Shown: positions 13,109 through 15,573, numbered from the stretch's first letter. The stretch is DNA of 64,000 nucleotides from Escherichia coli (GCF_051903065.1 NZ_CP178438.1), one strand, 5' to 3'. Numbers and translations are program-made. The notes: generated by a model from the letters alone, not told the origin.

Positions 13109-13172
13109 TGAGGTAGCCTGAGTTTAACGGACACTCCTTCCTGAAATAGAATGGCATCAGAAGGAGCTAATA

Positions 13173-13435
13173 ATGAGCAGAAAAACCCAACGTTACTCTA
13201 AAGAGTTCAAAGCCGAAGCTGTCAGAACGGTTCTTGAAAATCAACTTTCGATCAGTGAAGGCGCTTCCCGATTATCTCTTCCTGAAGGCACTTTAGGACA
13301 ATGGGTTACCGCCGCCAGAAAAGGGCTCGGTACTCTTGGTTCCCGCACGGTGGCTGAACTGGAATCTGAAATTCTGCAACTGCGTAAGGCGTTAAATGAA
13401 GCTCGCCTTGAGCGAGATATATTAAAAAAAGCCGT
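13173..13435 (+). pseudogene. IS600-like OrfA, disrupted by IS30 insertion 5 bp downstream of the A7 slippery run
   Basis: MSRKTQRYSKEFKAEAVRTV...ERDILKKA then IS30 left end; continuation [10 protein letters not shown] follows IS30 right end at 14657. Confidence 0.75.
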
Positions 13436-14656
13436 TGTAGATTCAATTGGTCAACGCAACAGTTATGTGAAAACATGGGGTTGCAGAGGTTTTTTGAATG
13501 AGACGAACATTTACAGCAGAGGAAAAAGCCTCTGTTTTTGAACTATGGAAGAACGGAACAGGCTTCAGTGAAATAGCGAATATCCTGGGTTCAAAACCCG
13601 GAACGATCTTCACTATGTTAAGGGATACTGGCGGCATAAAACCCCATGAGCGTAAGCGGGCTGTAGCTCACCTGACACTGTCTGAGCGCGAGGAGATACG
13701 AGCTGGTTTGTCAGCCAAAATGAGCATTCGTGCGATAGCTACTGCGCTGAATCGCAGTCCTTCGACGATCTCACGTGAAGTTCAGCGTAATCGGGGCAGA
13801 CGCTATTACAAAGCTGTTGATGCTAATAACCGAGCCAACAGAATGGCGAAAAGGCCAAAACCGTGCTTACTGGATCAAAATTTACCATTGCGAAAGCTTG
13901 TTCTGGAAAAGCTGGAGATGAAATGGTCTCCAGAGCAAATATCAGGATGGTTAAGGCGAACAAAACCACGTCAAAAAACGCTGCGAATATCACCTGAGAC
14001 AATTTATAAAACGCTGTACTTTCGTAGCCGTGAAGCGCTACACCACCTGAATATACAGCATCTGCGACGGTCGCATAGCCTTCGCCATGGCAGGCGTCAT
14101 ACCCGCAAAGGCGAAAGAGGTACGATTAACATAGTGAACGGAACACCAATTCACGAACGTTCCCGAAATATCGATAACAGACGCTCTCTGGGGCATTGGG
14201 AGGGCGATTTAGTCTTAGGTACAAAAAACTCTCATATAGCCACACTTGTAGACCGAAAATCACGTTATACGATCATCCTTAGACTCAGGGGCAAAGATTC
14301 TGTCTCAGTAAATCAGGCTCTTACCGACAAATTCCTGAGTTTACCGTCAGAACTCAGAAAATCACTGACATGGGACAGAGGAATGGAACTGGCCAGACAT
14401 CTAGAATTTACTGTCAGCACCGGCGTTAAAGTTTACTTCTGCGATCCTCAGAGTCCTTGGCAGCGGGGAACAAATGAGAACACAAATGGGCTAATTCGGC
14501 AGTACTTTCCTAAAAAGACATGTCTTGCCCAATATACTCAACATGAACTAGATCTGGTTGCTGCTCAGCTAAACAACAGACCGAGAAAGACACTGAAGTT
14601 CAAAACACCGAAAGAGATAATTGAAAGGGGTGTTGCATTGACAGATTGAATCTACA
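13436..14656 (+). mobile_element. IS30, complete 1221-bp copy
   Basis: Termini tgtagattcaattggtcaacg ... ttgacagattgaatctaca; length exactly 1221 bp; encodes 383-aa transposase. Confidence 0.9.
13498..14649 (+). CDS. insI: IS30 transposase (383 aa)
   Basis: Full-length ORF with N-terminal HTH and C-terminal DDE region typical of IS30. Confidence 0.9.
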   Translation: MRRTFTAEEKASVFELWKNGTGFSEIANILGSKPGTIFTMLRDTGGIKPHERKRAVAHLTLSEREEIRAGLSAKMSIRAIATALNRSPSTISREVQRNRGRRYYKAVDANNRANRMAKRPKPCLLDQNLPLRKLVLEKLEMKWSPEQISGWLRRTKPRQKTLRISPETIYKTLYFRSREALHHLNIQHLRRSHSLRHGRRHTRKGERGTINIVNGTPIHERSRNIDNRRSLGHWEGDLVLGTKNSHIATLVDRKSRYTIILRLRGKDSVSVNQALTDKFLSLPSELRKSLTWDRGMELARHLEFTVSTGVKVYFCDPQSPWQRGTNENTNGLIRQYFPKKTCLAQYTQHELDLVAAQLNNRPRKTLKFKTPKEIIERGVALTD

Positions 14657-14724
14657 ACCGCGCTCTTGATGTCAGACTCCCTGAACAGTTCTCGATAATC
14701 GGGAAACTCAGAGCGCATTATCCT

Positions 14725-15564
14725 GTGGTCACACTCTGCCATGTGTTCGGGGTTCATCGCAGCAGCTACAGATACTGGAAAAACCGTCCTGAAAAACCAG
14801 ACGGCAGACGGGCTGTATTACGCAGTCAGGTACTTGAGCTACATGGCATCAGCCACGGTTCGGCCGGAGCAAGAAGCATCGCCACAATGGCAACCCGGAG
14901 AGGCTACCAGATGGGACGCTGGCTTGCTGGCAGGCTCATGAAAGAGCTGGGGCTGGTCAGCTGTCAGCAGCCGACTCACCGGTATAAACGTGGTGGTCAT
15001 GAACATGTTGCTATCCCTAACTACCTTGAAAGGCAGTTCGCCGTGACCGAGCCAAATCAGGTGTGGTGCAGTGATGTGACCTATATCTGGACGGGTAAGC
15101 GCTGGGCGTACCTCGCCGTTGTTCTCGACCTGTTCGCAAGAAAACCAGTGGGCTGGGCCATGTCGTTCTCGCCGGACAGCAGGCTCACCATGAAAGCGCT
15201 GGAAATGGCATGGGAAACCCGTGGTAAGCCCGGCGGGGTGATGTTCCACAGCGATCAGGGCAGTCATTATACGAGCAGGCAGTTCCGGCAGTTATTGTGG
15301 CGATACCAGATCAGACAGGGTATGAGCCGGCGCGGAAACTGCAGGGATAACAGCCCAATGGAACGCTTCTTCAGGAGTCTGAAGAACGAATGGATGCCGG
15401 TGGTGGGTTACGTAAGCTTCAGCGAGGCAGCTCACGCCATAACGGACTATATCGTTGGATATTACAGCGCACTAAGACCGCACGAATATAACGGTGGGTT
15501 ACCCCCAAACGAATCGGAAAATCGATACTGGAAAAACTCTAACTCGGTGGCCAGTTTTTGTTGA
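14725..15564 (+). CDS. IS600-like OrfB (IS3-family integrase core)
   Basis: 279 aa with ...YRYWKNRP...WCSDVTYIW...[11 protein letters not shown]... motifs. Confidence 0.8.
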
Positions 15565-15573
15565 CCACTTCAT

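What the first reader, a model, noticed from the sequence alone, without database searches (positions are those of the whole stretch)
13109..15572. Nested insertion: IS30 landed 5 bp downstream of the IS600-like frameshift slippery run
A complete 1221-bp IS30 interrupts the IS600-like orfA right after the A7 run (13424-13430) that mediates programmed -1 frameshifting in IS3-family elements. The orfA sequence resumes after IS30 ([10 protein letters not shown]...). This separates OrfA from OrfB and abolishes OrfAB transposase, freezing the outer element while IS30 itself looks intact.
Basis: seen in the sequence. Interest (0 to 1): 0.35.

Follow-up and report, generated by a model that had tools for sequence, protein, structure and literature searches.

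The report
IS30 joining two different IS fragments
An intact IS30 insertion sequence is flanked on the left by the first 324 bases of IS600 and on the right by the last 916 bases of a different element, IS911, because the window holds one endpoint of a roughly 15-kb IS30-bounded chromosomal inversion in an E. coli genomic island; this is ordinary mobile-element scrambling, not a simple nested insertion.

Summary
A complete 1221-bp IS30 (13436-14656) starts 5 bp after the A7 slippery run of an IS600 orfA.

The sequence after IS30 is not the rest of IS600. It is nt 334-1249 of IS911: 99.67% identical to pCP301 IS911, with no detectable similarity to IS600. IS30 has no 2-bp target duplication here (GT vs AC). 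The outer ends have no 3-bp duplication (GGA vs TGT).

Comparison with complete E. coli genomes explains the structure. In strain 14EC033 an intact IS600 lies about 15 kb away, inverted, from a joint "X-left|IS30|IS911-right|S16 protease fragment". X is a third IS3-family element, possibly ISEhe3-like. In the window-type genome that 15 kb is inverted, and identical IS30 copies sit at both ends. The missing IS600 right half, with the matching GGA duplication, lies next to the second IS30 just upstream of the window.

IS30 occupies the homologous dinucleotide in IS911, IS600 and X, so the site behaves as an IS30 hot spot. All the elements and this kind of mosaic are known; K-12 annotates IS911A::IS30A and IS911B/IS30D/IS600. 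Interest is low.

The parts
1..13432 (.). Segment that is inverted relative to the arrangement in strain 14EC033. Its right breakpoint lies in the IS600 frameshift window.
   Evidence: window 1-13432 aligns as one 13,433-bp piece (99.83%) to L013 17306->3874 on the opposite strand. Window 13410-15721 aligns forward to L013 19054-21365.
12456..13108 (-). Degenerate group II intron-type reverse transcriptase remnant forming the left flank. Its last 3 bp, GGA (13106-13108), are one copy of the IS600 target duplication.
   Evidence: Weak Pfam RVT_1 hits, below the curated cut-off. In 14EC033 the intact IS600 is flanked by gacGGA / GGAtgc.
13109..13432 (+). IS600 nt 1-324: left inverted repeat and orfA codons 1-87 (ORF start at 13173).
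   Evidence: 99.69% identical to IS600 of pWR501 and of 14EC033, with 1 mismatch. Pfam HTH_Tnp_1 E=1.2e-20.
13424..13430 (+). A7 slippery heptamer of IS600 (site of programmed -1 frameshifting).
   Evidence: Intact copies of this IS600 are annotated by PGAP with 'programmed frameshift'.
13419..13432 (+). 14-bp block ATATTAAAAAAAGC shared exactly by IS600 and element X. It is the only homology left of IS30 between the two IS30-bearing joints.
   Evidence: Alignment; coordinates.
13433..13435 (+). CGT: 3 bp that are not IS600 (native AAC). They are identical to the 3 bp flanking the IS30 left repeat in the X-left|IS30 joints.
   Evidence: The same chimera in strain FY10 has the native AAC.
13436..14656 (+). 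IS30, complete: left repeat 13436-13461, right repeat 14631-14656, transposase ORF 13498-14649.
   Evidence: 1221 bp, 99.67% to K-12 IS30A. Pfam HTH_38 and rve. Identical to the second IS30 copy of 23CRST027 and to the single copy of 14EC033. S240L and V261L relative to K-12 InsI1.
14657..15572 (+). IS911 nt 334-1249. It comprises the AC target-duplication copy (14657-14658), the last 13 codons of IS911 orfA (14657-14698), the orfB frame (14659-15564) and the right inverted repeat.
   Evidence: 99.67% to IS911 of S. flexneri pCP301 and no blastn similarity to IS600. Joined to the K-12 IS911A left part, it aligns ungapped over 1249 bp to depositor-annotated IS911. Pfam rve E=6.9e-31. Three substitutions in the orfB frame relative to the reference: G138S, S221G, W229R.
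15573..15897 (+). 3' fragment of an S16 (Lon-type) serine protease gene. It forms the right flank, where IS911 originally inserted.
   Evidence: Pfam Lon_C E=1.7e-9. PGAP 'S16 family serine protease, missing N-terminus'. The same IS911-right|S16 joint occurs in ATCC 8739 and many other genomes.

Best explanation
The region is one endpoint of an IS30-bounded inversion inside the variable argW-csc-dsd island of E. coli. It is not one IS nested inside another.

The likely history has three steps:
1. An older joint, X-left|IS30|IS911-right|S16-protease fragment, already existed. It is itself a chimera, formed between IS30 copies that had inserted at the homologous site of two IS3-family elements.
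2. About 15 kb away, in inverted orientation, lay an intact IS600 between an alcohol-dehydrogenase gene fragment and a reverse-transcriptase remnant.
3. IS30 targeted the dinucleotide AC 4-5 bp past the IS600 slippery heptamer, and the intervening 15 kb became inverted. This happened either in one step, by intramolecular transposition of an IS30 dimer junction, or in two steps, by insertion in inverted orientation followed by homologous recombination between the two IS30 copies.

The inversion left two joints:
- RT'|IS600(1-324)|IS30|IS911(334-1249)|S16' is in the window.
- ADH|IS600-right'|IS30'|X-left' lies just upstream of the window.

The three bases next to the IS30 left end (CGT instead of AAC) were then, or at the same time, converted to the sequence of the other copy's flank. 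The probable route is branch migration or gene conversion running out of IS30 into the 14-bp block that IS600 and X share.

Shown: the identities of all pieces, the inversion, both joints, the identical IS30 copies, and the matching GGA duplication at the far end. Inferred: the order of events, one-step versus two-step, and the conversion mechanism.
For: Identity of the pieces:
- Left piece is IS600 nt 1-324 at 99.7%. Right piece is IS911 nt 334-1249 at 99.67% with no similarity to IS600.
- IS30 flanks are GT/AC and outer flanks are GGA/TGT, so there is no duplication at either level.

The inversion:
- Window 1-13432 is collinear but inverted relative to 14EC033.
- 14EC033 has an intact 1264-bp IS600 with a GGA duplication, and X-left..CGT|IS30|IS911-right about 15 kb away.
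- 23CRST027 is 99.99-100% identical to the window over the stretches compared. It carries the reciprocal joint X-left..CGT|IS30|ACAGCG-IS600-right..CACCTCA|GGA.
- Both of its IS30 copies are identical to each other and to the 14EC033 copy, sharing the markers A50 and T781.

Related states:
- FY10 has the same IS600-left|IS30|IS911-right chimera with the native AAC.
- FDAARGOS_536 has a simple IS30 insertion with an AC duplication in this very IS600 copy, uninverted.

Literature:
- IS30 junctions generate inversions, prefer hot spots, and show sequence conversion with branch migration (PMC9333248).
Against: - The native IS600 AAC is replaced by CGT, which a clean transposition would not give. 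An extra conversion step, or flank carry-over, must be assumed, and I could not observe it.
- The homology available for conversion beyond the 3-bp mismatch is only 14 bp.
- No genome was found with two A50/T781 IS30 copies still in the uninverted configuration, so one-step and two-step routes cannot be told apart.
- The second endpoint lies outside the window. It is inferred from near-identical public genomes, not from the window itself.
- In ZF8-1 that endpoint is absent; an IS1A copy lies where it would be.
Confidence: 0.85

Rival explanations
1. One reading: one IS600-like IS3-family element (13109-15572) received a simple IS30 insertion, and both halves of the outer element are still in place.
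For: IS30 abuts an IS600 orfA fragment 5 bp after the A7 run. If 2 bp are dropped, the downstream frame reads on as an OrfA-like tail.
Against: The right piece is 99.67% IS911 and has no blastn similarity to IS600. The true IS600 continues AACAGCGTATTTTGC..., with the OrfA tail TAYFAQESLKNTR. There is no 2-bp or 3-bp target duplication. The real IS600 right half, with the GGA duplication, is found elsewhere.
Confidence: 0.01
2. A natural IS600/IS911 hybrid insertion sequence, recombinant at the conserved frameshift window, existed first and was later hit by IS30.
For: The two elements share the site geometry, so a hybrid would be in frame.
Against: No uninterrupted hybrid exists in 5,426 complete E. 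coli genomes. The one checked (Combat11I9) of the 42 apparent hits is IS911-right followed by a separate IS600. The reciprocal joint and the inverted 13.4 kb explain the structure without a hybrid. The outer flanks lack a common duplication.
Confidence: 0.03
3. Sub-variant A (two steps): an IS30 circle inserted into the IS600 hot spot in inverted orientation. RecA-dependent recombination between the two 1.2-kb inverted copies then flipped the 15 kb, with a conversion tract covering the 3 bp at the left end.
For: FDAARGOS_536 shows that a simple insertion into this IS600 copy does occur. Both new joints carry AC in FY10 and 23CRST027. Conversion accounts for CGT at both copies.
Against: The intermediate found has a different IS30 haplotype (G50/C781). 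No uninverted two-copy A50/T781 genome was seen.
Confidence: 0.45
4. Sub-variant B (one step): intramolecular transposition of an (IS30)2 or IR-IR junction from the X-left|IS30|IS911-right copy into the IS600 hot spot produced the inversion and the second copy at once.
For: Both IS30 copies are identical to the donor haplotype. IS30 dimer junctions are known to yield inversions by hot-spot targeting (PMC9333248). The geometry fits exactly: donor joints are retained, new joints lie at the AC dinucleotide.
Against: The expected AAC at the new left-repeat joint is CGT in the window. A 2-bp spacer flap could explain GT but not the third base.
Confidence: 0.4
5. Assembly artefact: the chimera results from misjoining contigs across the IS30 repeat.
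For: Two identical inverted IS30 copies 15 kb apart are a classic source of misassembly.
Against: The same joint occurs in three independently sequenced complete genomes from Ecuador and China, and in rearranged form in FY10. The 3-bp CGT signature lies outside the repeat.
Confidence: 0.02

Closest known systems
E. coli K-12 CP4-6 prophage: IS911A interrupted by IS30A (insN / insI1)
   Same: IS30 in the same orientation at exactly the same IS911 position. The right joint, IRR|ACCGCGCTCTTG, is identical. This interruption is noted in PMC9333248.
   Different: In K-12 both flanks are IS911, with a perfect AC duplication, and IS911-right is truncated to 429 bp. In the window the left flank is IS600 and there is no duplication.
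E. coli K-12 KpLE2 mosaic: IS911B-left | IS30D | IS600 (327 bp) | IS911B-right
   Same: The same 327-bp IS600 left fragment is fused to the IS30 left repeat, and IS30 is flanked by fragments of two different IS3-family elements.
   Different: In K-12 the junction bases are the native AAC, the other IS30 end abuts IS911-left (reverse complement), and the chromosomal locus is different. The K-12 yjhV flank shows no similarity to the window's S16 fragment.
True IS600::IS30 nested insertions (next to sat in Nissle 1917 and strain 23555; at the capsule locus in M217; in the argW island of FDAARGOS_536)
   Same: Same insertion position in IS600 orfA.
   Different: In those loci both IS600 halves flank IS30, with an AC duplication in FDAARGOS_536, Nissle 1917 and 23555. 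M217 reads GCCGC on the left and ACAGCG on the right. In the window the right half is replaced by IS911.
IS30-mediated inversions and hot-spot targeting (Olasz et al. 1993, 1998; Szabo et al. 2022, PMC9333248)
   Same: The inverted segment is bracketed by inverted IS30 copies. New joints lie at a preferred target with a 2-bp stagger. Sequence conversion near IS30 ends has been described.
   Different: Those are plasmid and K-12 experiments. Here it is a natural 15-kb chromosomal inversion whose target lies inside another IS.

Membership tests
IS30 (IS30 family) | About 1221 bp with 26-bp imperfect terminal inverted repeats | tested here: met
   13436-14656 is 1221 bp with both repeats exact. 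It is 99.67% identical to K-12 IS30A.
IS30 (IS30 family) | Single transposase ORF with an N-terminal HTH and a DDE (rve) core | tested here: met
   383-aa ORF. HTH_38 E=1.6e-23 and rve E=3.3e-14. The motifs HWEGD, TWDRG and NENTNG are present. S240L and V261L relative to K-12; activity was not tested.
IS30 (IS30 family) | 2-bp direct target duplication | tested here: not met
   GT on the left and AC on the right. The rearrangement explains this: the AC partner lies at the other IS30 copy. This speaks against a simple insertion at this copy, not against the element being IS30.
IS600 (IS3 family) | Full 1264-bp element with both inverted repeats, orfA, a slippery site and orfB | tested here: not met
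   Only nt 1-324 are present. Nothing in 14657-15572 matches IS600.
IS600 (IS3 family) | 3-bp target duplication | tested here: not met
   GGA on the left and TGT on the right within the window. The matching GGA lies at the IS600 right end, next to the second IS30 copy, in 23CRST027 and 14EC033.
IS911 (IS3 family) | Sequence identity to reference IS911, including the right inverted repeat and orfB | tested here: met
   nt 334-1249 at 99.67% to pCP301 IS911. The first 333 nt are absent, so this is a fragment.
IS3-family programmed -1 frameshift unit (orfA - A6G/A7 - orfB) | Slippery heptamer with orfB in the -1 frame downstream, within the same element | tested here: not met
   The heptamer belongs to IS600 and the -1 frame ORF belongs to IS911. 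They are 1226 bp apart.

The most novel reading that the evidence does not exclude
The frameshift window of IS3-group elements (TTAAAAAAG/A-GCN-NN) is a conserved hot spot for IS30. IS30 would then repeatedly disable IS911, IS600 and ISEhe3-like elements at the same dinucleotide. Because the hit elements share a short block beside the insertion point, IS30 copies then act as portable homology that shuffles IS3-family halves, drives inversions, and carries a few flank bases from joint to joint.

Evidence here:
- Perfect duplications at the homologous site in three elements: AC in IS911, AC in IS600, GC in X.
- Both orientations in IS911.
- 1,267 of 5,426 genomes carry the IS600-left|IS30 joint.
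- The left arm resembles the K-12 IS30C target and the lambda LHS region.

IS30 specialists may already know this; I could not read Olasz et al. 1998.
Probability: 0.6. Interest if true: 0.3.

Novelty: already known. Interest (0 to 1): 0.15.

Why it matters
The main value is for correct annotation. Taken as a nested insertion, the region would be filed as one dead IS600-like element. It actually marks the breakpoint of a 15-kb inversion in the variable argW-csc-dsd island and consists of fragments of three known IS elements. It is also a clear natural example of two things: IS30 repeatedly targeting the same few bases of IS3-family elements, and identical IS copies producing chimeric joints that mimic simple insertions. 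No new biology is required.

Tried and rejected
- Tested whether the right flank is K-12 yjhV, which would make the locus orthologous to KpLE2. There was no similarity, so this was rejected.
- Searched for an uninterrupted IS600/IS911 hybrid. The one apparent hit inspected (of 42) was IS911-right followed by a separate IS600.
- First used the pWR501 IS600 copy as the reference. Its right end is disrupted by IS2, so I replaced it with the 1264-bp copy from 14EC033.
- Tried to obtain the published IS30 hot-spot consensus. Olasz 1998, Kiss 2003 and Szabo 2010 are not held. PMC9333248 gives only the lambda LHS coordinates, so the centre of LHS in my comparison is uncertain.
- Arm symmetry of the targets is weak, 4-8 of 16, so I make no claim of palindromy.
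- A simple reciprocal crossover within the 14-bp block was rejected as the origin of CGT, because the reciprocal joint also carries CGT.
- A 2-bp spacer-flap origin explains GT but not the third base.
- FY10 was examined as a possible intermediate. It turned out to be a further-rearranged derivative carrying group II introns.

Full report
**1. The observation**

- The sequence at 13436-14656 is a complete IS30. It is 1221 bp, has both 26-bp terminal repeats intact, and differs at four bases from K-12 IS30A.
- It carries an uninterrupted 383-aa transposase ORF with HTH_38 and rve domains.
- The A7 run lies at 13424-13430. Exactly five bases (GCCGT) separate it from IS30.
- The 324 bases from 13109 are IS600 nt 1-324: left repeat plus orfA codons 1-87, one mismatch against IS600 of S. 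flexneri pWR501 and of E. coli 14EC033.

**2.

- The 916 bases after IS30 (14657-15572) are not IS600.
- They match nt 334-1249 of IS911 from S. flexneri pCP301, which its depositors annotated as IS911 ORF1/ORF2. There are three mismatches and no gaps. blastn finds no similarity to IS600.
- Intact IS600 continues ...AAAAAAAGCAACAGCGTATTTTGCACAGG. That gives the OrfA tail TAYFAQESLKNTR and a quite different orfB.
- The reading looks continuous only because IS30 sits at the homologous position in both elements. Joined directly, the flanks are out of frame (…KKAVPRS*). They come into frame only if two bases are dropped.
- IS30 lacks its 2-bp duplication here: GT on the left, AC on the right.
- The outer ends lack a 3-bp duplication: GGA versus TGT.

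**3. What the joints look like elsewhere**

| Genome or locus | Arrangement |
|---|---|
| K-12 IS911A::IS30A | …AAAAAAGGCTAC\|IS30\|ACCGCGCTC…, perfect AC duplication |
| K-12 KpLE2 | IS911B-left \| IS30D \| IS600(327 bp) \| IS911B-right; IS600-left…GCAAC abuts the IS30 left repeat and IS911B-left abuts the right repeat |
| Nissle 1917, 23555 (next to sat), FDAARGOS_536 | True IS600::IS30 with both IS600 halves and an AC duplication |
| M217 (capsule locus) | Both IS600 halves, but GCCGC\|IS30\|ACAGCG |
| ATCC 8739 and most of the 357 genomes covering at least 80% of the query | X-left…AAAAAAAGCCGT\|IS30\|IS911-right\|S16 fragment |
| E. coli C | X…GCCGC\|IS30\|GCGGCGTAC…, perfect GC duplication |

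- X is a third IS3-family element. It is intact in K. pneumoniae plasmid pKP64216b, where the native sequence reads …AAAAAAAGCCGCGGCGTAC.
- X is possibly ISEhe3-like. PMC3032704 lists a partial ISEhe3 in Crooks/ATCC 8739. I did not test this directly.
- The IS600-left|IS30 joint is present in 1,267 of 5,426 complete genomes.
- The exact window version occurs in only three of those genomes.

**4. The inversion**

- The joint RT-remnant|IS600-left occurs in 103 genomes. In most of the top-listed hits the feature under the match is annotated as an IS3-family transposase rather than a fragment, which suggests an intact IS600.
- Strain 14EC033 carries this arrangement: ADH | intact IS600 (minus strand, 1264 bp, GGA duplication) | RT remnant … about 15 kb … | X-left..CGT | IS30 | IS911-right | S16 fragment.
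- Window 1-13432 aligns to that genome as a single 13,433-bp piece at 99.83% on the opposite strand. Window 13410-15721 aligns forward.
- Strain 23CRST027 is 99.99-100% identical to the window over the stretches compared.
- Its order is: tRNA-Arg | integrase fragment | IS903B | ADH fragment | IS600-right (reverse complement) | IS30 (reverse complement) | X-left (reverse complement) | … inverted segment … | RT remnant | IS600-left | IS30 | IS911-right | S16 fragment.
- The reciprocal joint reads X-left…GCCGT|IS30|ACAGCGTATTTTGC…(IS600-right)…CACCTCA|GGA. It carries both the AC of the hot spot and the GGA that matches the window's left flank.
- That joint lies about 1.5-2.7 kb upstream of the window start.
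- Both IS30 copies in 23CRST027 are identical to each other and to the single 14EC033 copy, sharing markers A50 and T781. IS30 copies in other IS600 contexts have G50 and C781.
- In ZF8-1 the reciprocal end is absent and an IS1A copy lies where it would be.

**5. Mechanism**

- The geometry retains the donor joints X-left|IRL and IRR|IS911-right. It adds new joints IS600-left|IRL and IRR|AC-IS600-right.
- That is what hot-spot targeting by an IS30 IR-IR junction in cis produces. It is equally what a simple inverted insertion followed by recombination between the two copies produces.
- Both routes are established for IS30 (PMC9333248). I cannot separate them.
- FDAARGOS_536 shows that simple insertion into this IS600 copy happens.
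- FY10 carries the same chimera with the native AAC.
- The window's CGT is unexpected for clean transposition. It equals the three bases flanking the left repeat of the other copy, and both copies carry it, so a reciprocal crossover in the 14-bp shared block is excluded.
- The best inference is non-reciprocal conversion. A Holliday junction or heteroduplex starting in IS30 runs out through the 3-bp mismatch into the 14-bp block ATATTAAAAAAAGC shared by IS600 and X.
- Conversion with branch migration is documented for IS30 IR-targeting.
- M217 shows a comparable case: IS600-left with the X-type CGC.
- This step is inferred, not shown.

**6. Why IS30 sits 5 bp after the slippery run**

- IS30 occupies the homologous dinucleotide in IS911 (AC, in both orientations), IS600 (AC, in several loci and IS30 haplotypes) and X (GC).
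- These are independent events, so the site behaves as an IS30 hot spot.
- The left arm TTAAAAAAG(G/C) resembles the left arm of the K-12 IS30C target in ydbA (GTTAATAAAGGTA[CT]). It also resembles the lambda LHS region (CCAATAAAAGTGG[CG]).
- I could not obtain the published consensus, and the LHS centre is inferred from coordinates in PMC9333248.
- Arm symmetry is weak.

**7. Comparison with what is known, and verdict**

- Every component is a known E. coli or Shigella IS.
- IS30 inside IS911 and the IS911/IS30/IS600 mosaic are annotated in K-12.
- IS30-driven inversions are textbook.
- The window adds a specific natural inversion in the argW-csc-dsd island, which PMC3032704 describes as highly variable.
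- Interest is low and novelty is "already known".
- The only mildly new points are how consistently the hot spot coincides with the IS3-family frameshift window, and the 3-bp flank conversion.

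Noticed in passing
window 13419-13435; loci L004, L005, L009, L012, L016: IS30 sits at the homologous dinucleotide, 4-5 bp after the slippery heptamer, in three different IS3-family elements: IS911 (AC, both orientations), IS600 (AC) and X (GC). 1,267 of 5,426 complete E. coli genomes carry the IS600-left|IS30 joint. The frameshift window behaves as an IS30 hot spot.
   Followed up: partly
window 13433-13435; L009 3325-3327; L003/L010 5802-5807: The few bases next to IS30 ends are sometimes foreign. IS600-left carries X-type CGT (window) or CGC (M217) instead of AAC. In Nissle 1917 and 23555, IS600-right starts ACCGCG (IS911-like) instead of ACAGCG. This suggests short conversion tracts or flank carry-over between IS30 copies. 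The mechanism is unresolved.
   Followed up: partly
L003 4096-5345; L010 4488-5737: In strains 23555 and Nissle 1917, next to sat, the IS30 that interrupts IS600 is itself interrupted by an IS911-like element (annotated ISEc52, 96% to IS911). This is nesting in the reverse direction and three levels deep.
   Followed up: no
window 13498-14649: The IS30 transposase here carries S240L, three residues after the Asp of the HWEGD motif, and V261L relative to K-12 InsI1. The same protein (WP_024176232.1) is annotated in 14EC033, Combat11I9, FY10, ZF8-1 and at both IS30 copies of 23CRST027. The identical second copy hints that it may still be active.
   Followed up: partly
window 14659-15564: The IS911 orfB frame has three substitutions relative to pCP301 IS911 (G138S, S221G, W229R). 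I did not assess whether any affects activity.
   Followed up: no
window 5414-6656 (minus strand): Another IS3-family element, about 64% identical to IS911 at the DNA level. The equivalent gene in 23CRST027 is annotated as an IS3-family transposase with a programmed frameshift.
   Followed up: no
window 28437-28445: evgS is continuous in the window. The otherwise 100% identical strain 23CRST027 has an IS5-family insertion at this point, so the window comes from a very close relative rather than from that assembly.
   Followed up: partly
window 1-19000: The surrounding argW island is an IS graveyard. It contains an autotransporter gene, IS66 tnpABC with an internal stop, IS21, IS4 and IS256-like fragments, group II intron RT remnants and a frameshifted IS1A. 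The csc sucrose genes and a truncated dsdX follow.
   Followed up: no
L015 (strain FY10) 2102-3610 and 14141-15649: In FY10, IS911-right is split at nt 762/763. Two identical group II intron ltrA copies sit at the two halves in inverted orientation, which points to a further inversion mediated by the intron copies.
   Followed up: no
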